Assembly (NCBI GenBank): GCA_964409875.1 | Contig: CAYPEN010000001.1 | Coordinates: forward strand, 70,362-134,361 | Length of the DNA stretch: 64,000 nucleotides | Direction: 5' to 3' | Source of the DNA: an uncultured Gammaproteobacteria bacterium | Lineage (GTDB): Bacteria; Patescibacteriota; Microgenomatia; Levybacterales; GWA1-39-11 | Shown: positions 5,517 to 54,945 of the stretch, in pieces | Position numbering within the stretch: the first letter of the stretch is position 1 | How the letters are laid out: each line of letters starts with the position of its first letter | Notes under the pieces: model-generated | Told to the model about the DNA's origin: nothing | The model's database searches: none | The model's input: the letters and a program-made list of their open reading frames with translations, nothing else | Made by a program: the position numbers and the translations under genes

Positions 5517-6674
5517 CTAAATAACAGGTTGGGATTTATCTATTGAAAGAAGCTGTAATCCATTTTCCCAGCCCATTTTTTCTGCAATCTCATTTGCCGG
5601 TGTCAGCTTCCCCTTCACCTCTCTGGTTATGCCTTCAATAATTTGCATCGATGCTTCCTGGGCAGTTCCAAACTTCACAAGTCCCTGAGTTGCGGCAACA
5701 GTTATACCATCAGTTGTATCAACTATTCTTCCTGCCTTGCCAACTTCTACAGGTCCCTGGATTTTTTCCGGGTCGAATACGTTTAACCAGCCTTCGGAAG
5801 TTGGGTTGGGAACCCATGCACCCGGTCTATTAGATGCCCCCTTTGTGATGTGGTAAATTTCGTGTGCTGTACCTAGATGCAGTTGGACTTCTTCTTTTGT
5901 TACTCGTGGTTCTGCGTCAGTGCGGTTGTTTTGTTCTTGGCCTACATATAGTTTGCCGAGACGGTACGCAGAAGCTATCGTATCAACACCTTCAAGAGTA
6001 GTTGCAATGGCTACACCAACCATTTCACCGACCGCAGTTGTATTGGTGTGTGTGTCATCTATCTCGGTGAAGTTGCGGGCAATAACATGTCCGGAGTCCA
6101 TCAACTTTGGGTCTTTGCCATCATCCTCTATCCGGTAAAATGTTGCACCTGTTCTGAATTTATTCCGTTCGTTGGTGTTGCCGGACATAATAAGTCTTGC
6201 CACCGCAGAGCCTCCCGGATGAAGAGGAAGAGGTGTCAAGTGAATAGCAGCCATTCCCAAACGCGCGCTTTTTATCTGTTCTATGCCTACAGTTGGAGTG
6301 AAGTTAGCACCTACTATTAGGTCTGCTTTGTAGTTTTTTAAAGCCGGAAGGAAATTTTTATCCTCAAAGTCCGAAAAGGTAAAATCCTCAATCCCTTGTT
6401 CTTTTGCCAATTTTCTTACCGGGTCGAAATCCTTATCACTTTTTTTCTTCATTGGTCCGCCGACAGCAACCACCTCATGTCCTCTATCTATCAGCCCCTG
6501 TACAACTCCTTCACCAATTGGACCCATGCCGATAACAATTGTCCGAAGCGAGGTTGTTAGCGGGTTCTCCGGATGTAACGTTATTTCTGACTTGTCGAAA
6601 TTGCGGATATCCTTTAGGATTGGAATTGCAAGCTGTGCGTTCTCTTGGGGAGTAGAATGTAATATCTCTGCCAT
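5517..6674 (-). CDS. hypothetical protein with N-terminal Rossmann-type (GxGxxG) dinucleotide-binding domain
   Basis: 385 aa. IVIGMGPIGEGVVQGLIDRGHEVVAV matches the GxGxxG fingerprint. Remainder unassigned, with weak formyltransferase-like resemblance. Confidence 0.35.
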   Translation of the reverse strand: MAEILHSTPQENAQLAIPILKDIRNFDKSEITLHPENPLTTSLRTIVIGMGPIGEGVVQGLIDRGHEVVAVGGPMKKKSDKDFDPVRKLAKEQGIEDFTFSDFEDKNFLPALKNYKADLIVGANFTPTVGIEQIKSARLGMAAIHLTPLPLHPGGSAVARLIMSGNTNERNKFRTGATFYRIEDDGKDPKLMDSGHVIARNFTEIDDTHTNTTAVGEMVGVAIATTLEGVDTIASAYRLGKLYVGQEQNNRTDAEPRVTKEEVQLHLGTAHEIYHITKGASNRPGAWVPNPTSEGWLNVFDPEKIQGPVEVGKAGRIVDTTDGITVAATQGLVKFGTAQEASMQIIEGITREVKGKLTPANEIAEKMGWENGLQLLSIDKSQPVI

Positions 6675-6748
6675 TAATTGTCAAATGTATACCAGTTGAA
6701 ATTTGTTGTCAATATCGTGTGTTTTCGTTCAGTCGGGGTGGAGGGAAT

Positions 6749-6912
6749 AAGAACTCTGCTTCGTAAAGACCTTGATTACATTAAGAACTCTGCTTCGTAA
6801 AGACCTTGATTACATTAAGAACTCTGCTTCGTAAAGACCTTGATTGCATTAAGAACTCTGCTTCGCAAAGACCTTGATTACATTAAGAACTCTGCTTCGC
6901 AAAGACCTTGTT
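6749..6912. repeat. tandem direct repeat, 34-bp unit x ~4.8 (aagaactctgcttcg[t/c]aaagaccttgattacatt)
   Basis: Read directly. Contiguous copies with no spacers. Flanked by 22-nt direct repeats (6726-6748 and 6934-6957); the second is the 3' end of tRNA-Pro. Confidence 0.9.
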
Positions 6913-6941
6913 CCCTCCTACCGCTCCTTCACTTCGTTCAG

Positions 6942-7013
6942 TCGGGGTGGAGGGAATTGAACCCTCTGCCGCACGAACCCGAATCGTGCATGCAACCGAT
7001 ACACCTCACCCCG
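6942..7013 (-). tRNA. tRNA-Pro (anticodon CGG)
   Basis: Manual cloverleaf fold on the minus strand. Acceptor CGGGGTG/CACCCCG. Anticodon loop TTCGGGT. T-arm GAGGG-TTCAATT-CCCTC. 72 nt; CCA not encoded. Confidence 0.75.
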
Positions 7014-7091
7014 AAATGCGACCCCGAGAGGAGTCGTTCTGTTTTACAGTTGCCAAAGGCAACAATCCAATCTTTCGCCGAAGGCAATTTG

Positions 7092-7164
7092 CGACCCCGA
7101 GAGGAGTCGAACCTCCAATCTTTCCCTTAGGACGGGACTGCTCAATCCATTAAGCTACGGGGTC
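7092..7164 (-). tRNA. tRNA-Arg (anticodon CCU)
   Basis: Manual fold. Acceptor GACCCCG/CGGGGTC. D-arm GCTT/GAGC with GG in the loop. Anticodon loop GTCCTAA. T-loop TTCGACT. 73 nt. Confidence 0.8.
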
Positions 7165-7363
7165 ATTTACGTTTTCAATCTGCTCAATCCCTCAGCGCAA
7201 TGCTAACGCATTGAAAGCTACGGGGTCATACGCCGCAAGCTTTGCTTAAACGAAGTTCAAGCTCTGCTTACGGGGTCTAGTTCGTTCGTATTTTATCATC
7301 CATTGTACTCCTGAAGCAAAGGATATGGACATTTTAGACATCATGACTTATAACTAGTCCCAA

Positions 7364-31148: not shown

Positions 31149-32363
31149 ATGGAGAGAAGGGATAGGTCATTTAGGCCCGAAAGATCGCACGAATTCGACA
31201 CAGGGCAGTTATACCAGGAATTTAGGTTTGCTGATATTGCTCGTGGAGCTGAGAATAAGCCAATCTTTTTTACGCCTGACATTAAAGTATATTTGTCGTC
31301 AAAAAATACTGAATATGGGACTTCATACCAGATGGTTTTTGGCCGTCCCATGCAAAGAGGAGATATTCTTCAGTCATTTTTTCACTATTTATCGGTTCCC
31401 ACTGATCAGGCGACTCTTGCTTCTCAAATTTCAGGGCTTATACCTATGAGCGATGAAGTTAGCCGAGATGCAGCCTTGCTTAAAGACACGCTTGAACAGC
31501 CGGACACAGCTTCTTTATCCGGTTTGGTTGTTGATAGGCTTACGACAATAGATTATTGTTGGGATCAGTTAAAACGTGACAAAAAATATTTAAAACAGTT
31601 ACAGAAGGAAGAATTGGCAGAAGTGCCTCGAATAGTTTTTACGGAGCACGCTGAGGGTTTGGCCAAAATTATGAGAAACCATCCGGAATTATGGAAACCA
31701 AAGACCTCAAGACGGAGCATCGGAAATGCAACTCGTGTGAGGGCAATTAGTAGACTTGCGCAACTGGGTGATCCGATAAGAGAAGCGGTATTTGATGAGG
31801 AGTTTGAAAGTCATGACGCAGATGAGCAAGAGCTCATGACAATAAACAGAACAACAGAATGGCACAATGGAATCCCTCTTGTCATGGGAAATGGAGAGTT
31901 TGGAATGCTTTTGAGAAGCAGTGGTGATCTAAATATTACTGACCTTGGAAATGGGTTGCATAGAGTTACAAAGGGAAGAGAAGAGGTGGTCATAGATCTT
32001 TTTGGCGGAGACAAACATCTTGCAGATATTTATCCAGCAAATGACAGATACGTAATACCAGCTATCTCATGGGAGAAATCAAAAATAGGTTCCCGCGCGG
32101 CAACATTCAAACATGGATTCTATTCCGGCCCATCAACAATTGAGACAATGTCAGGAGATGAAAGAATTAGGGTCATAAGAACTTATGCACCATGGCAGAT
32201 AAATATCCTGGCAGGTCTTATGAGCCTGGGAGTTTCTTCAAGATACGAGCCATTGCATGACGCGAGCACAGCAGAAGAAGTTGTTGAAACGGTATTAAGA
32301 GAGAGAAATCACATTCTAAATAATCCGTTTATTGAAAATGCGGAGAAACTGGCAGTGTTTTAA
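31149..32363 (+). CDS. hypothetical protein
   Basis: 404-aa ORF, no motif recognised. Confidence 0.4.
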   Translation: MERRDRSFRPERSHEFDTGQLYQEFRFADIARGAENKPIFFTPDIKVYLSSKNTEYGTSYQMVFGRPMQRGDILQSFFHYLSVPTDQATLASQISGLIPMSDEVSRDAALLKDTLEQPDTASLSGLVVDRLTTIDYCWDQLKRDKKYLKQLQKEELAEVPRIVFTEHAEGLAKIMRNHPELWKPKTSRRSIGNATRVRAISRLAQLGDPIREAVFDEEFESHDADEQELMTINRTTEWHNGIPLVMGNGEFGMLLRSSGDLNITDLGNGLHRVTKGREEVVIDLFGGDKHLADIYPANDRYVIPAISWEKSKIGSRAATFKHGFYSGPSTIETMSGDERIRVIRTYAPWQINILAGLMSLGVSSRYEPLHDASTAEEVVETVLRERNHILNNPFIENAEKLAVF

Positions 32364-33226
32364 GATAGGTTTAGTTTTTCAAGGAGAGTTTTTCCTTCAT
32401 CTCCAAATCCGTTAATGAAATCTTTATAATTCATTGCATTTTTTCCTTCTACCTGGATTTTTTCCTCCGGCAAAAGCTTTACGATTTTTGTCTGGTTTTT
32501 TAATTGTGTTGTTAGCCAAACTCCTGGCCATGGGTAAAAAGCTTTAATCATAGCGTTTAGCGTATAGGTAGAGCTTGCCCCTTCGGGGTAGCGATTAGCG
32601 TTTAGTTTATTGATATCTATATATCCATCTTGTTTTGTGATTTTGTAACTCCAGGTTTCTTTGCTGTGGTCCTGAGGGATTCCAATTATCTTTTCTCCGC
32701 TTTCAAGCTTCGCTAAAACATCAACCACCATATCGGCACCGATTTCAAACAAGATAGACAACATATCTTCTGCCGTTTCATTTCCTTGGAGATTATATGG
32801 GCGTTGGGAAAGAACTGGGCCATGGTCGATTTCATTATCAAGTTTTATAAGAGTAACGCCTGTTTGTGTCTCTCCGTTAAGCAAACTGTATTGCACAGGG
32901 GAAGGACCTTTCCATTTTGGAAGCAAACTTGGATGAATATTTATGATTCCATTTTCAAATAATCCGATAATCCCATTGGGAATGAAAGCTCCGAATGATG
33001 CAAGCACAGCAACCGTAGGGTTTAATTTTTTTATTTTTTCTATCGTTTCGTTATCTTTCAGGTTTGAACAAACGTAAGGAATATTGTTTTTTTTGCAAAA
33101 ATTAACGACCTTCCCACCTACTTCATTAGTAATAACCAGCTGCAGATTAAACTTTCTCAGCTTTTCTATAACGGGCACTACAAACCAACCGCTCCCAAAA
33201 AAAATGATATTTTGTCCCATCTTCAT
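32360..33226 (-). CDS. fmt: methionyl-tRNA formyltransferase
   Basis: 288 aa. IFFGSGWFVVPVIEKL N-terminus. INIHPSLLPKWKGPSPVQ and GVTLIKLDNEIDHGPVLSQ formyltransferase motifs. Confidence 0.85.
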   Translation of the reverse strand: MKMGQNIIFFGSGWFVVPVIEKLRKFNLQLVITNEVGGKVVNFCKKNNIPYVCSNLKDNETIEKIKKLNPTVAVLASFGAFIPNGIIGLFENGIINIHPSLLPKWKGPSPVQYSLLNGETQTGVTLIKLDNEIDHGPVLSQRPYNLQGNETAEDMLSILFEIGADMVVDVLAKLESGEKIIGIPQDHSKETWSYKITKQDGYIDINKLNANRYPEGASSTYTLNAMIKAFYPWPGVWLTTQLKNQTKIVKLLPEEKIQVEGKNAMNYKDFINGFGDEGKTLLEKLNLS

Positions 33227-44445: not shown

Positions 44446-45902
<1,457 letters not shown>

Positions 45903-50700: not shown

Positions 50701-50844
50701 TCATTAAACGTAAAGGATTATTCAGCTCAAGTCAAATGAAATGAAGATGGTGTAGTGTGTGTAAATCCGTTTATCGAAGATTAATCCTTTTCACTAAATA
50801 CATTGTGGGTGATGAACATGTTCTCGCCCACCGCACTTCGTTTG

Positions 50845-50912
50845 TGGGTGATAAAGGAGTCGGACCTTTGACCTCGTTCTTACGCTCTGATGGAGTGAGT
50901 GATCAGGAACGC
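50845..50912 (-). pseudogene. partial tRNA-Ile copy (anticodon arm to 3' end) with a 20-nt insertion in the anticodon loop
   Basis: Identical to the tRNA-Ile 3' portion except CTGA[tcactcactccatcagagcg]TAAGAACG. No D-arm or 5' acceptor strand. Confidence 0.6.
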
Positions 50913-50953
50913 ATTGAAGATATTTTTGATACTCCTTTTCACCGAAGGTATTG

Positions 50954-51025
50954 TGGGTGATAAAGGAGTCGGACCTTTGACCTCGTTCTTATCAGGAACG
51001 CGCTCTACCGTTGAGCCAATCACCC
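50954..51025 (-). tRNA. tRNA-Ile (anticodon GAU)
   Basis: Manual fold. Acceptor GGGTGAT/ATCACCC. D-arm GCTC/GAGC. Anticodon stem CGTTC/GAACG with loop CTGATAA. T-arm AAAGG-TCCGACT-CCTTT. Confidence 0.8.
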
Positions 51026-51127
51026 TAATTTTGATTGGTAAAACGGCAAACTTGTTTACCGTTGAGCCAATCACCCTAATTTTGATTGGTAAAACGGCAA
51101 ACTTGTTTACCGTTGAGCCAATCACCC
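51007..51127. repeat. tandem repeat, 51-nt unit x ~2.4, each unit starting with the first 19 nt of tRNA-Ile
   Basis: accgttgagccaatcaccc + taattttgattggtaaaacggcaaacttgttt repeated. Units contain two inverted repeats (ccaatca/tgattgg; aacggtaaac/gtttgccgtt). Confidence 0.85.
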
Positions 51128-51962: not shown

Positions 51963-53054
51963 CTACAGAACTAGCAAAAATATTCCTCCCAGGATTACTA
52001 TTATTGCCCCACCAATAATTCCAATTGTTTGAGCCATACCGCCCGGTTTTGCTATGGTCGGTGTAGCCGTCGGCGGAATTGGTGTTGCTGTTGCGGTCGG
52101 TACAACTGTAGCAGTTGCGGTGGGTTGCAAGGATGGGGTGGGGGTCTGAGTTGGTGAAATAGTAGCAGTGGGGGTGCTGGTGGGTGTCGGAGATGGAGTT
52201 AAGGTTGCTGTTGGCGTTGGTGTATAGGTAGCAGTAGGAGTGGGGGTGTTGGTGGGAGTTGCAGTGGGGGTATTAGTTGGGGTGGATGTCGTAGTATTTG
52301 TAGGGCTAACAGAAGTTGTTATTGTTGCTGATGGCGTTGCCGTTATTGTTACTGACGGTGTTGTTGTTGCGGTGGGGGTAGCAGTTGGTGTAATTTCCGC
52401 GTCAAGTACAGAACCAAAATCAGTCGTCCAGTACCAATTCTGGTCGTGCGTTGATTGGACGCGCGCAATGCCAATTGCAACAGCTTGCGCGTCTTTCATT
52501 TGCTCCCTGTGGGCATACGTACAGTTATTTCCATTCGCATCCCCGTCGCATCCGTTTTTCCACGCATCGAATGCACTTTGTCCGGTTGGCCCTACCCAAG
52601 CAATATTTTCTGCAATATGGGGAGCGCTATAGCCAAATGAGGGGATTCTTGTATTAATATTTCTGCCTTTCGAATCCACATGGTCTAAGTGTCCTGAAAC
52701 TGCCATGTCATTCGACATCCAGTCGGCCGATTCCGTAAGCTTTACGGAAATTTTCAAAGGGGATAGTCCAAATGTGGCACGGTAATCATTAATCAGTTTT
52801 AAAAAATTCCACTCTTCAGTGTCTATGTCTTTAGTTGAAGTTGTGGTAGTAGTTGAAGGAGTAGTGGTATCATTTCCGCTTGCACGTTGTCTGTTATCTT
52901 GCTGTTGTTTGATAAGAATTGTTGTGATAATAAGAGCTACCAAGACAAAAGTAATTGCACCGATGAGAACGAATTTTTTCTGCACAGTTAATATTACCTT
53001 TTGAACCTTTATAAACGCAATACTGATAGCATTCCGCTTCAAATTTTGATACAC
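51963..53054 (-). CDS. secreted CAP/SCP (PR-1-like) domain protein with Thr/Pro linker and C-terminal hydrophobic tail
   Basis: 363 aa. TM then QQQDNRQRA motif. CAP-like core ([10 protein letters not shown]...[11 protein letters not shown]...AWKNGCDGD). Long TPT repeat. Ends KPGG + 22 hydrophobic residues. Confidence 0.55.
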
Positions 53055-53065
53055 TTACCGCTAAT

Positions 53066-53137
53066 GGCGCGGTGGCGAAGTGGTAACGCGGGGGTCTGCA
53101 AAACCTCTATGCGAGGGTCCGATTCCCTTCCGCGCCT
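53066..53137 (+). tRNA. tRNA-Cys (anticodon GCA)
   Basis: Manual fold. Acceptor GGCGCGG/CCGCGCC. Anticodon loop CTGCAAA. T-arm GAGGG-TCCGATT-CCCTT (one G-U). Confidence 0.7.
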
Positions 53138-53162
53138 CAAATTTTAGTTTACGTTCTTCAGG

Positions 53163-53248
53163 TTGGCGAAGAGATCACTCACCGTTTCACGGTGTAATGC
53201 AGCGGTCTGCAAAACCGCGATGCAGGGGTTCGATTCCCCTCCGCGCCT
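53163..53248 (+). pseudogene. degenerate tRNA-Cys-like copy (intact anticodon arm/T-arm/3' acceptor strand; no matching 5' acceptor strand; ~22-nt insertion in D region)
   Basis: GCGGT-CTGCAAA-ACCGC, AGGGG-TTCGATT-CCCCT and CCGCGCC are present. The 5' side reads GGTTGGCGAAG[agatcactcaccgtttcacg]GTGTAATGCAG. Confidence 0.5.
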
Positions 53249-53415
53249 CACGAAACATCAATTTTTTTAATTCACGAGTTTTCTTTGTTGCCAATGGTGT
53301 TTGGTTTCGCCCCGATTCTCCCCTTCGGGGATCCGGCTTTCAGCATGACCCACGTGCCTCAAAATTCCCCAAACCCCTATAGTATTTTTCTTAATTTGTG
53401 CTATAATTCTTACTT

Positions 53416-54220: not shown

Positions 54221-54829
54221 TTATCGACTCGGAATTACGCTCGTGGAAGAAAGCACGATTTGCATCGGAGTAGTAGTATCAAGAACTGAGAATTTGGTTT
54301 TTTGAGTAGTAACAGCTGATTTTGGCAAGAATGTAACTTTCGTTGAGGTAACCCCTGAGAATTTGTTAGCTGTGAATGATAGTTGTCCGATGCTTGCTTT
54401 GCCAACTTTCTCGGTATCACCAAGCGCAATAGAAAGAGCATAGGAAATTCTTCCTTGTGTCTTGTCAATAGTATTTATTAAGACAATCGGGTTTTGCCCG
54501 AAAAGCTGGCCTGGAACAAGTGGAGTCAGTGTCACATTGGTAAGCGCTGTGGGGTCATACGTAAGCTCAACTTGTGCGCCAGCCACGGATTGGCCGTTAG
54601 TATCAAGAATAATATCCACCTTTTGCGCAGGGGTGCTTTTGGATACGTCCAACAATGGCGTTGAGAAGGAAAGCGAAGCAAAAGGCCGGATGACTACTGG
54701 TGTTGCAGTTACCGTGTTGGAGACTGATTTGCCTAGATTCTGAGTCTGATCTGAGCGAATAGCAACAAAGATAAGAACTCCTGTAATTATTGCGAGAATG
54801 ATAATAAGAATTGTCGTCTTTTTGGGCAT
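54221..54829 (-). CDS. membrane-anchored cohesin-like domain protein
   Basis: 202 aa. N-terminal TM. ~150-aa domain with QKVDIILDTNGQSVAGAQVELTYDPTALTNV and IGQLSFTANK...TSTKVTF resembling type-I cohesin strands. Homologous to the N-terminal domain of 55047..56615. Confidence 0.45.
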   Translation of the reverse strand: MPKKTTILIIILAIITGVLIFVAIRSDQTQNLGKSVSNTVTATPVVIRPFASLSFSTPLLDVSKSTPAQKVDIILDTNGQSVAGAQVELTYDPTALTNVTLTPLVPGQLFGQNPIVLINTIDKTQGRISYALSIALGDTEKVGKASIGQLSFTANKFSGVTSTKVTFLPKSAVTTQKTKFSVLDTTTPMQIVLSSTSVIPSR

Positions 54830-54945
54830 AGATTTAAATGTTCAATTCTTTACGTTGTATAAGAATGGTTGTTTTTTTGGGCATAGATTTAAATGTTCAA
54901 TTCTTTACGTTGTATAAGAATGGTTGTTTTTTTGGCATAGTAGGT
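54819..54945. repeat. 55-bp tandem direct repeat (x ~2.3) duplicating the start codon and first ~9 codons of the cohesin-like gene
   Basis: tttttgggcatagatttaaatgttcaattctttacgttgtataagaatggttg repeated. Each extra copy gives ATG + ~12-15 codons then a stop (MPKKTTILIQRKELNI*). Confidence 0.85.

What the first reader, a model, noticed from the sequence alone, without database searches (positions are those of the whole stretch)
6725..7290. tRNA-Pro/tRNA-Arg locus riddled with partial tRNA duplicates and a 34-bp iteron-like array
On the minus strand (tRNA-Pro 6942..7013, tRNA-Arg 7092..7164):
- The last 16 nt of tRNA-Pro plus 6 nt of flank recur 190 bp downstream (6726-6748). The 34-bp x 4.8 tandem array (6749-6912) fills the interval.
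- The last 19 nt of tRNA-Arg (GACTCCTCTCGGGGTCGCA) recur 56 nt downstream (7019-7037).
- Upstream of tRNA-Arg there are two extra copies of its 5' end (GACCCCGTAGCTT at 7213-7228 and GACCCCGTAAGC at ~7270). One continues into a D-arm-like GGATTGAGCAG.

Direct repeats of tRNA 3' ends are the classic signature of integrase attL/attR sites. The intervening DNA here is only repeats. This could be the scar of excised or decayed integrative elements, an iteron-bearing origin remnant, or a recombination hotspot. The supplied ORFs 6840..7130 and 6908..7153 are artefacts of this structure.
Basis: seen in the sequence. Interest (0 to 1): 0.6.

Follow-up and report, generated by a model that had tools for sequence, protein, structure and literature searches.

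The report
tRNA genes ringed by self-fragments
In this small-genome (CPR, Levyibacteriota) bacterium and its closest relatives, tRNA genes sit among short leftover copies of their own ends, which look like local duplication debris rather than scars of integrated viruses or a replication origin.

Summary
tRNA-Pro(cgg) and tRNA-Arg(cct) lie on the minus strand. Exact copies of their ends lie 50-210 nt away, and a 34-bp x 4.8 array fills the gap below tRNA-Pro. Independent assemblies reproduce the fragments but break inside the array.

The locus is not special. All four tRNAs in the window carry such stubs. In the window's clade (Candidatus Levyibacteriota) 10 of 13 tRNAs do, against 2 of 87 elsewhere. 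Stubs are always on the gene's strand, 5' pieces upstream and 3' pieces downstream. The promoter always abuts the first copy. For tRNA-Cys the window kept the first copy and three relatives kept the last.

No integrase gene, kb-scale bounded island, phage or plasmid match, rep gene, DnaA-box cluster or GC-skew switch was found.

The best reading is local partial duplication with differential loss, repeat expansion, and homogenisation with the gene. The attL/attR scar reading stays possible for the 3' stubs only.

One point is unexplained. Some non-tRNA hairpins and trailers next to stubs are about 100% conserved although neutral sites are saturated, which hints that some pieces were co-opted. 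The pattern seems undescribed. Interest is moderate.

The parts
7290..7298 (-). Extended -10 promoter-like TGATAAAAT for the tRNA-Arg/tRNA-Pro unit, 12 nt upstream of the outermost Arg 5' stub
   Evidence: Read from the sequence. The same TGnTAnAnT architecture is conserved before tRNA-Ile and tRNA-Cys in the window and relatives. Function is inferred, not shown.
7266..7277 (-). Arg 5' stub A, GACCCCGTAAGC (Arg 1-9 exact, then diverged), embedded in a long hairpin
   Evidence: Leader fold z = -3.7.
7180..7229 (-). Arg 5' pseudo-half B: Arg 1-13 plus 2 nt of leader (7215-7229), a 24-nt insert with hairpin CAATGC/GCATTG (7191-7214), and Arg 17-27 (7180-7190)
   Evidence: L027 has the same architecture: promoter, stub, hairpin insert, D-arm piece.
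7091..7164 (-). Intact tRNA-Arg(cct)
   Evidence: ARAGORN. Rfam 53.8 bits.
7017..7076 (-). Arg 3' pseudo-half: Arg 41-51 (7066-7076), a 29-nt insert with two hairpins (7037-7065), and Arg 56-74 (7017-7036). It ends 3 nt before tRNA-Pro.
   Evidence: It is conserved in L004 with paired indels that keep both hairpins. Fold z = -2.5.
6941..7013 (-). Intact tRNA-Pro(cgg)
   Evidence: ARAGORN. Rfam 49.5 bits. Identical in L004.
6924..6941 (-). Conserved tRNA-Pro trailer CTGAACGAAGTGAAGGAG. It contains the 9-mer AACGAAGTG that is shared with tRNA-Ile trailers.
   Evidence: 18/18 identical in L004. Motif enrichment is 6 of 7 occurrences in tRNA trailers.
6749..6910 (.). 34-bp x 4.8 tandem array (97% identical units). 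Two units carry a weak hairpin plus T-rich tail on the minus strand.
   Evidence: Its RNA fold is no better than shuffles. The unit has no significant similarity to tRNA-Pro. It is absent from all other loci and collections.
6724..6748 (-). tRNA-Pro 3' stub: positions 58-73 plus 9 nt of trailer, 100% identical to 6933-6957, ending 11 nt above the -35 box of the next gene
   Evidence: Absent in L004.
6684..6712 (-). Promoter TTGACA-17-TACATT of the formyltransferase-domain gene (5517-6674)
   Evidence: A 32-nt block is identical in L004 while the gene itself is 50-70% identical.
51026..51127 (-). Two extra copies of tRNA-Ile positions 1-20, each followed by a 31-nt hairpin-forming spacer. This is the 51-bp x 2.4 array, 100% identical.
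   Evidence: Fold z = -7.4. One homologous copy is present in L057.
50953..51025 (-). Intact tRNA-Ile(gat)
50782..50912 (-). tRNA-Ile 3' pseudo-copies: positions 25-35 (50902-50912), a 19-nt insert, positions 35-73 plus 2 nt (50842-50882, 100%), the ancestral trailer, then a third stub plus flank (50782-50816, 80% to 50930-50964)
   Evidence: L061 has the same 35/36-73 stub and junction, 100% identical to its own diverged gene.
53066..53138 (+). Intact tRNA-Cys(gca), directly behind the conserved promoter TGATACACT (53047-53055)
53164..53250 (+). Decayed second copy of tRNA-Cys. It lacks the 5' acceptor strand, has a hairpin insert in the D-loop, and is 84% identical over 57 nt.
   Evidence: It does not score as a tRNA.

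Best explanation
The Pro/Arg locus is one instance of a clade-wide pattern. In this Levyibacteriota sub-lineage, tRNA genes undergo repeated short local duplications whose end-points fall inside the gene.

Only outcomes that leave one intact copy survive. What therefore accumulates is:
- 5' stubs between the promoter and the gene;
- 3' stubs beyond the gene.

Once two copies of a 15-40-nt segment exist, slippage or unequal recombination expands them into arrays. Examples are the 51-bp Ile array, the 41-nt array in L057, and probably the 34-bp array. Gene conversion from the adjacent intact gene keeps many stubs identical to it.

The stubs are therefore duplication and differential-loss debris, not attachment sites. 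Some neighbouring hairpins and trailers may since have been co-opted as leader, spacer or trailer signals.

**Shown:** the anatomy, the distribution, the alternative copy retention, the tracking of each stub to its own gene, and the absence of mobile-element hallmarks.

**Inferred:** the molecular mechanism (slippage or template switching at tRNA hairpins, and gene conversion).
For: 1. **Every tRNA in the window has stubs.** All four carry cognate partial copies.
2. **Clade enrichment.** In the clade (window, L004/L057, L059, L061, L027), 10 of 13 tRNAs have stubs, against 2 of 87 in other loci. Fisher p = 1e-9.
3. **Orientation.** Every significant upstream hit is a 5' part and every downstream hit is a 3' part. 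All are on the gene's strand except one 11-nt hit.
4. **Promoter position and copy retention.** The conserved promoter always abuts the first copy.
   - For tRNA-Cys the window has an intact first copy and a decayed second copy (84%).
   - L057, L059 and L061 have a stub first and the intact copy last. L061 has three copies.
   - This is the signature of tandem duplication with differential loss.
5. **Stubs inside recent tandem units.** The stub is part of perfectly repeated units: 51 bp x 2.4 in the window and 41 nt x 2.5 in L057. A non-tRNA 55-bp array at 54804-54940 shows the genome is prone to such repeats.
6. **Tracking of the gene.**
   - The Ile 35/36-73 stub has the same junction in the window and in L061. 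In each it is 100% identical to its own gene, although the two genes differ at 3 positions.
   - The Cys stubs in L061 carry that gene's own substitutions.
7. **Stubs can also decay.** Examples are the window's Cys copy at 84% and the L027 Arg stub with 3 differences from its gene.
8. **Inverted copies next to stubs.** Several stubs are followed within 3-31 nt by the reverse complement of their own end, as snap-back template switching would give. Examples are GCGAAGTG/CACTTCGC, ACGGTAAAC/GTTTGCCGT and CCCACTGAA/TTCAGTGGG.
9. **No mobile-element hallmarks.** There is no integrase, bounded island, phage or plasmid match.
Against: - **Pro stub.** It is not a simple tandem product. It shares only 25 nt with the gene region, with sharp edges, and the 184 nt between are unrelated to what follows the stub.
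- **Junction positions.** Junctions cluster in tRNA loops, about 10-11 of 14-15 by my own count, binomial about 0.01. This also fits site-specific recombinases.
- **Conserved non-tRNA sequence.** Pieces next to stubs are about 100% conserved between the window and the L004/L057 species, although 4-fold sites are saturated at 36% identity. Pure debris should not be conserved this way.
- **Sampling.** Only 13 tRNAs of the clade could be examined.
- **Mechanism.** No direct evidence exists for slippage, template switching or gene conversion.
Confidence: 0.5

Rival explanations
1. The 3' stubs are attR-like scars of small or heavily decayed integrative elements that crossed over in the T-loop (Pro, Arg) or anticodon loop (Ile). 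Each element brought a replacement 3' end and displaced the original one downstream. The 34-bp array would be what remains of the element.
For: - The identity blocks start in the T-loop or anticodon loop and run to the 3' end plus 2-9 nt of trailer. From my own knowledge of Williams 2002, these are the classical integrase sublocations.
- At tRNA-Ile the ancestral trailer follows the stub, not the intact gene.
- The slot below tRNA-Pro differs between relatives. The window has the array, L004 has an orphan 329-aa ORF, and L006 has an unrelated gene.
- L019 and L028 carry 134-nt and 82-nt structured inserts at the same T-loop position of tRNA-Pro.
- Integration is the documented source of prokaryotic tRNA gene fragments (PMC9897764).
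Against: - No integrase was found in 38 scanned ORFs (37 of the window's 45 of at least 200 aa) or near any stub-bearing tRNA in relatives.
- The intervening DNA is 53-184 nt with no coding capacity.
- No kb-scale repeat pairs occur in any locus.
- No viral, phage or plasmid sequence carries these tRNA halves or the 34-bp unit.
- The model cannot explain 5' stubs between promoter and gene, the alternative copy retention at tRNA-Cys, or perfect tandem arrays that contain the stub.
- L004 has the same 18-nt trailer directly after tRNA-Pro as the window. So the sequence next to the intact gene is ancestral, not element-borne.
Confidence: 0.2
2. The stubs and their hairpins are functional cis-acting parts of the tRNA precursors or promoters, kept by selection. 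Possible roles are leader or spacer hairpins that guide processing, attenuate or terminate transcription, or sequester competing strands.
For: - Non-tRNA sequence beside stubs is about 100% conserved between the window and the L004/L057 species, although 4-fold sites are saturated and the adjacent gene is 50-70% identical.
  - AACAAGTTTGCCGT follows the Ile stub.
  - The two hairpins inside the Arg 3' pseudo-half are kept through paired indels.
  - The 18-nt Pro trailer is identical.
  - AACGAAGTG is shared by Pro and Ile trailers.
- The leaders fold far better than shuffles, z = -3.7 and -7.4.
- The Arg 5' pseudo-half architecture recurs in L027 with a different hairpin sequence.
- Weak terminator-like hairpins occur in two array units.
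Against: - Presence, number and kind of stubs differ between close relatives. The window lacks the Cys leader stub, L059 lacks Ile stubs, L049 and L020 have none, and L004 lacks the Pro stub and the array.
- More distant Levybacteria manage without any, 0 of 5.
- Some copies are visibly decaying.
- The 34-bp array has no better-than-random RNA structure and no homologue anywhere.
- No Rfam family matches.
- Covariation evidence rests on two sequences.
Confidence: 0.2
3. The 34-bp array is an iteron array of a plasmid or chromosomal replication origin, or a remnant of one.
For: Only the form supports this: direct repeats in tandem, in a non-coding region.
Against: - No rep or dnaA gene lies nearby.
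- No DnaA-box match lies in 6.4-9.5 kb, and the window has fewer matches than shuffles.
- GC content is 39-55% with no AT-rich unwinding stretch.
- Cumulative GC skew rises steadily across the window with no switch.
- There is no plasmid or phage match.
- The 34-bp head-to-tail period is atypical for iterons (own knowledge).
Confidence: 0.02
4. The repeats are assembly artefacts, from collapsed or mis-joined reads or strain variants placed in tandem.
For: - Short-read contigs break inside the 34-bp array, so its copy number is unverified.
- Contigs of relatives also end at such repeats.
Against: - A different assembler on two runs gives base-identical sequence across all Arg stubs, both tRNAs and both array flanks.
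- L057 (JGI) and L058 (NCBI MAG) agree.
- L019, L023 and L055 agree across three samples.
- Homologous stubs occur in different species.
Confidence: 0.03

Closest known systems
attL/attR direct repeats of tRNA 3' parts left by integrase-mediated insertion of prophages, ICEs and islands (PMC9897764; Williams 2002 from my own knowledge)
   Same: Exact same-strand copies of the tRNA 3' part, starting in the T-loop or anticodon loop and including a few trailer bases, lie downstream of an intact gene.
   Different: There is no integrase and no cargo. Spacing is 53-184 nt instead of kilobases. 5' stubs upstream are equally frequent. Stubs form tandem arrays. Every tRNA examined in the genome is affected.
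Tandem duplication-random loss pseudo-tRNAs of animal mitochondrial and plastid genomes (e.g. PMC5122201)
   Same: Colinear, same-strand partial copies lie next to the functional gene. Sister lineages keep different copies (tRNA-Cys). Order changes occur between neighbouring tRNAs (Pro/Arg arrangements).
   Different: This is a free-standing bacterial chromosome. The units are only 50-200 nt and end inside the gene. Many stubs stay 100% identical to the gene through saturating divergence. Stubs are associated with hairpins.
Bacterial minisatellites / VNTR arrays generated by slipped-strand mispairing
   Same: The 34-, 51- and 55-bp head-to-tail arrays are 95-100% identical and lie in intergenic DNA.
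   Different: Two of the three arrays are anchored on or bounded by a tRNA end. Copy-number polymorphism has not been demonstrated.
Group I intron-interrupted tRNA genes of Patescibacteria (PMC13011429)
   Same: Same phylum. Interruption falls in the anticodon loop, and the Ile pseudo-copy insert can be placed at 35/36, the site reported there.
   Different: The inserts are 17-82 nt, not introns. There is no Rfam intron hit. The interrupted copies lack parts of the tRNA, and an intact gene lies beside them.
Split tRNA genes of Nanoarchaeum (own knowledge)
   Same: Separate 5' and 3' tRNA pieces are associated with complementary flanking sequence.
   Different: Here an intact gene is present. 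The pieces flank it, lack the anticodon arm and cannot be joined into a tRNA.

Membership tests
tRNA-integrated element att sites (attL/attR) | Direct repeat made of the 3' part of the target tRNA | tested here: met
   25-nt (Pro) and 20-nt (Arg) exact repeats starting in the T-loop.
tRNA-integrated element att sites (attL/attR) | Integrase (tyrosine or serine recombinase) gene within or beside the bounded segment | tested here: not met
   Pfam scans of 38 ORFs (37 of the window's 45 of at least 200 aa) gave no recombinase. The bounded segments are 53-184 nt.
tRNA-integrated element att sites (attL/attR) | Occupied versus empty site, or a free element carrying the attP copy | tested here: inconclusive
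   L004 lacks the Pro stub and array but holds an orphan ORF at the site. No viral, phage or plasmid sequence carries the repeats.
tRNA-integrated element att sites (attL/attR) | Fragments restricted to the side of the gene that the element replaces (normally 3') | tested here: not met
   5' stubs lie upstream of Arg, Ile and (in relatives) Cys.
Iteron-type replication origin | Adjacent initiator (rep or dnaA) gene | tested here: not met
   The neighbours are a formyltransferase-domain protein, an acyltransferase, DsbA and DsbB.
Iteron-type replication origin | DnaA boxes, an AT-rich unwinding element and a GC-skew switch | tested here: not met
Tandem duplication with differential (random) loss | Colinear same-strand partial copies adjacent to the intact gene | tested here: met
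   All 24 significant hits but one 11-nt hit are on the same strand. 5' parts lie upstream and 3' parts downstream.
Tandem duplication with differential (random) loss | Sister lineages retain different copies of the duplicate | tested here: met
   At tRNA-Cys the window keeps the promoter-proximal copy. L057, L059 and L061 keep the distal copy.
Tandem duplication with differential (random) loss | The lost copy decays as a pseudogene | tested here: inconclusive
   The window's Cys copy is 84% identical and the L027 stub has 3 differences. Most stubs, however, stay 100% identical to the gene, which requires gene conversion or recency.
Slippage-generated tandem array (VNTR) | Copy-number variation between strains or reads | not testable with these tools
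   Short-read contigs break inside the array. Long reads are needed.
Intron-containing or split tRNA gene | The pieces reconstitute a complete cloverleaf after removal of the insert | tested here: not met
   The pseudo-copies lack acceptor or anticodon parts. None scores as a tRNA even at E = 5, and no intron family hits.

The most novel reading that the evidence does not exclude
In this Levyibacteriota sub-clade, tRNA genes are deliberately embedded in self-derived leader and trailer modules: a stub plus a hairpin. These are maintained by selection and by gene conversion with the gene. They act in cis on precursor transcription or processing, or serve as intrachromosomal repair templates for single-copy tRNA genes. 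That would be a previously undescribed kind of tRNA gene architecture.
Probability: 0.2. Interest if true: 0.7.

Novelty: new variant of a known kind. Interest (0 to 1): 0.45.

Why it matters
**Practical consequences**
- Island and prophage finders that rely on tRNA-fragment direct repeats would call false att sites throughout this clade.
- The stubs create spurious ORFs.
- The stubs break short-read assemblies at tRNA loci.

**Biological consequences**
- The data show a streamlined CPR genome with single-copy tRNA genes going through frequent duplication and loss cycles at those genes.
- Stubs survive saturating divergence while staying identical to the gene. That makes a natural system for studying gene conversion and template switching at structured, highly transcribed DNA.
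- If the conserved hairpins prove functional, this would be a new layer of tRNA precursor control in bacteria that lack many conventional regulators.

Tried and rejected
- **34-bp unit elsewhere.** No other copy in the window, in viral contigs, in any fetched locus, or in plasmids or phages.
- **Pro stub plus trailer, Arg stub, and Pro and Ile 3' halves in viral contigs.** No hits.
- **Relatives of the formyltransferase-like neighbour in GTDB genomes.** No relative found. Only 3 homologues exist in 5.8 billion proteins.
- **Descent of the 34-bp unit from tRNA-Pro.** Local alignment is no better than shuffles, p = 0.44. Only the unit/stub junction aligns, with gaps.
- **The array as a structured RNA or terminator set.** Fold z is about 0 to +1.5. 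Only two weak terminator-like matches were found, about the number shuffles give.
- **Origin hypothesis.** No DnaA boxes, skew switch or AT-rich region.
- **Known RNA families at permissive thresholds.** Nothing but the tRNAs.
- **A shared inserted element.** The GTGAGTGAT motif occurs in the window's Ile and Cys pseudo-copy inserts. It is only marginally enriched, 2 of 3 occurrences against 0.17 expected. I left it as an observation.
- **Homology of the L004 329-aa ORF.** No match to the window or to the L006 neighbour and no Pfam hit.
- **Literature.** Three searches found tRNA fragments attributed to integration or CRISPR, and group I introns in Patescibacteria. None described tRNA-flanking self-stubs.
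Full report
**1. Checking the observation**

ARAGORN and Rfam agree on four tRNA genes in the window:
- tRNA-Pro(cgg) at 6941-7013(-)
- tRNA-Arg(cct) at 7091-7164(-)
- tRNA-Ile(gat) at 50953-51025(-)
- tRNA-Cys(gca) at 53066-53138(+)

TRF finds the 34-bp x 4.8 array at 6748-6910 with 97% matches. The unit occurs nowhere else in the window, and zero matches are expected by chance.

The exact direct repeats are all present:

| Repeat | Coordinates | Content |
|---|---|---|
| 25 nt | 6724-6748 = 6933-6957 | last 16 nt of tRNA-Pro from the T-loop, plus 9 nt of trailer |
| 20 nt | 7017-7036 = 7090-7109 | tRNA-Arg from the T-loop to the 3' end |
| 15 nt | 7215-7229 = 7152-7166 | Arg 1-13 plus 2 nt of leader |
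| 11 nt | 7180-7190 = 7138-7148 | Arg 17-27 |
| 12 nt | 7266-7277 | GACCCCGTAAGC |

With it, the downstream copy becomes a 3' pseudo-half interrupted by a 29-nt insert.

Chance expectation for the longer repeats is 1e-3 to 1e-9.

Logan assemblies of two runs reproduce 6870-7363 and 6638-6777 exactly. They end inside the array. The fragments are therefore real, and only the array's copy number is unverified.

**2. The locus is not special**

The other two tRNAs in the window show the same thing.

tRNA-Ile:
- Two extra copies of positions 1-20 lie upstream, inside a perfect 51-bp x 2.4 array.
- Downstream lie a 100% copy of positions 35-73, a piece covering 25-35, and a third 3'-end stub.

tRNA-Cys is followed by a decayed second copy. 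It is 84% identical over 57 nt, lacks the 5' acceptor strand and has a hairpin insert in the D-loop.

**3. Organism and relatives**

The window is a core chromosomal region. It holds 16S rRNA, TruB, MreB/C, DprA, FabF and Fmt.

The nearest named relative is a Candidatus Levyibacteriota MAG, GCA_041910135.1, which supplies loci L004, L007 and L058.

Syntenic loci came from two routes:
- Neighbouring proteins gave L004, L057/L058, L059, L061 and L063-L065.
- A 25-nt tRNA-Pro pattern in metagenomes gave L008-L056.

**4. Clade-wide pattern**

Counting tRNAs with a cognate same-strand partial copy within about 450 nt:
- In the window's clade (window, L004/L057 species, L059, L061, L027): 10 of 13.
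- In all other loci, including more distant Levybacteria at 0 of 5: 2 of 87.
- Fisher p = 1e-9.

Every upstream hit is a 5' part and every downstream hit is a 3' part. All but one 11-nt hit are on the gene's strand.

A conserved extended -10 promoter (TTTTGATAnAnT-like) always abuts the first copy:
- In the window's Cys locus that first copy is the intact gene, and the decayed copy follows.
- In L057, L059 and L061 the promoter is followed by a 17-nt stub plus hairpin, then the intact gene.
- L061 has three copies: positions 1-44, positions 1-17, and the intact gene.

In the Arg/Pro locus the promoter-like TGATAAAAT (7290-7298) likewise precedes the outermost stub. L027 repeats the window's Arg 5' pseudo-half architecture with a different hairpin.

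**5. Age and homogenisation**

Four-fold degenerate sites of the neighbouring dCTP deaminase gene are saturated between these genomes, at 31-51% identity. The window and L004 are 50-70% identical within the formyltransferase-like gene but 93-100% identical in its promoter.

Despite this divergence:
- The Ile 35/36-73 stub has the same junction in the window and in L061. In each it is 100% identical to its own gene, although the genes differ at 3 positions.
- The L061 Cys stubs carry that gene's substitutions.

Old stubs are therefore kept identical to the resident gene. Gene conversion is the simplest cause, though this is an inference. Other copies decay, such as the window's Cys copy and the L027 Arg stub.

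**6.

Integrative-element scars:
- No recombinase was found in 38 scanned ORFs (37 of the window's 45 of at least 200 aa).
- No tRNA-derived 14-mer recurs more than 600 nt away in any locus.
- No viral, phage or plasmid match exists to the stubs, the tRNA halves or the array.
- The bounded DNA is 53-184 nt.
- L004 has the same 18-nt trailer next to tRNA-Pro as the window, so that side is ancestral.
- 5' stubs, alternative copy retention and stub-containing tandem units do not fit the model.

Points in favour of the scar reading:
- Junctions fall in T-loops and anticodon loops.
- The ancestral Ile trailer follows the stub.
- The slot below tRNA-Pro is variable. The window has the array, L004 has an orphan 329-aa ORF, and L006 has an unrelated gene.
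- L019 and L028 carry structured inserts at the tRNA-Pro T-loop.

Origin or iterons: there is no initiator gene, DnaA-box cluster, AT-rich stretch or GC-skew switch.

**7. Most likely mechanism (confidence 0.5)**

Short local duplications with end-points inside tRNA genes are filtered by the need to keep one intact copy. This leaves 5' stubs behind the promoter and 3' stubs beyond the gene. Slippage or unequal exchange between the resulting repeats builds arrays. Gene conversion homogenises stubs with the gene.

Two further observations fit template switching or breakage at extruded tRNA hairpins, but they do not prove it:
- Several stubs are followed by the reverse complement of their own end.
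- Junctions cluster in loops, about 10-11 of 14-15 by my count, binomial about 0.01.

The 34-bp array fits as an expanded spacer between tRNA-Pro and its stub. Its unit has no detectable origin and no convincing structure.

**8. What this model does not explain**

Non-tRNA blocks beside stubs are about 100% conserved between the window and the L004/L057 species despite saturated neutral sites:
- AACAAGTTTGCCGT after the Ile stub
- two hairpins inside the Arg 3' pseudo-half, preserved through paired indels
- the 18-nt Pro trailer
- the 9-mer AACGAAGTG shared by Pro and Ile trailers

The leaders also fold far better than shuffles.

Some pieces are therefore probably under selection as leader, spacer or trailer elements. 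I rate a primarily functional reading at about 0.2.

**9. Comparison with what is known**

The literature held here attributes prokaryotic tRNA gene fragments to element integration or CRISPR spacers (PMC9897764). [quoted passage not shown] Three searches found no description of tRNA-flanking self-stubs.

The closest analogue in behaviour is tandem duplication-random loss in organelle genomes (PMC5122201).

I classify the finding as a new variant of a known kind (partial tRNA gene duplicates) and give it moderate interest.

Noticed in passing
L008-L056 (metagenome loci): tRNA-Pro(cgg) and tRNA-Arg(cct) are neighbours in about 37 of 49 loci but in three arrangements: Arg>Pro, divergent, and Pro>Arg. 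The two genes often share an identical 12-17-nt T-arm. This suggests recurrent rearrangement and exchange between the two genes.
   Followed up: partly
window 6930-6938 and 50834-50842; L004 236-244; L057 5372, 5413, 5454: The 9-mer AACGAAGTG lies 1-3 nt after the 3' end of tRNA-Pro and of tRNA-Ile or its stubs. Six of its 7 occurrences in 122 kb are tRNA trailers. It may be a processing or termination signal.
   Followed up: partly
window 50895-50903 and 53174-53182; L061 11831: GTGAGTGAT(C) occurs inside the inserts of both the Ile and Cys pseudo-copies, 2 of 3 occurrences against 0.17 expected. Related GAGTGAT and GCGAGTGA occur in the L061, L028 and L019 inserts. Its significance is unclear.
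   Followed up: partly
window 54804-54940: A 55-bp x 2.5 tandem array (95%) lies in an intergenic region with no tRNA, upstream of a cohesin-domain gene. It shows a general tendency to long-unit intergenic tandem repeats.
   Followed up: no
window 44446-45901: The 16S rRNA gene is not followed by a 23S gene within the remaining 18 kb and has no spacer tRNAs. The rRNA genes are unlinked, as is common in CPR bacteria.
   Followed up: no
L004 290-1279(-): An orphan 329-aa ORF occupies the slot that holds the 34-bp array and Pro stub in the window. It has no Pfam hit and no homologue in the window or any fetched locus.
   Followed up: partly
L028 165-334: A tRNA-Pro copy (positions 1-58) is interrupted in the T-loop by an 82-nt strongly self-complementary insert. 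ATTCCCTCCAC follows, and an intact tRNA-Pro lies 20 nt further on. L019, L023 and L055 carry a 134-nt structured insert between tRNA-Pro and a 20-nt 3' stub.
   Followed up: partly
L001/L002 ends (= window 6777), L003 start (= window 6870), L004 start, L020 and L049 starts: Short-read contigs of this clade tend to end inside tRNA stubs or arrays. These repeats therefore fragment MAG assemblies.
   Followed up: no
window 5517-6674(-) and 32360-33226(-): The 385-aa neighbour of tRNA-Pro has only a weak formyltransferase N-domain (1e-8) and just 3 homologues in 5.8 billion proteins. A canonical Fmt-like gene lies at 32360-33226.
   Followed up: no
L065 1092-1304 and 5242-5940; L061 2881-3132: Small GIY-YIG ORFs lie next to tRNA-Ile or nearby, and an IS200/IS605 Y1 transposase lies beside the dCTP deaminase gene, in more distant Levybacteria that lack stubs.
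   Followed up: no
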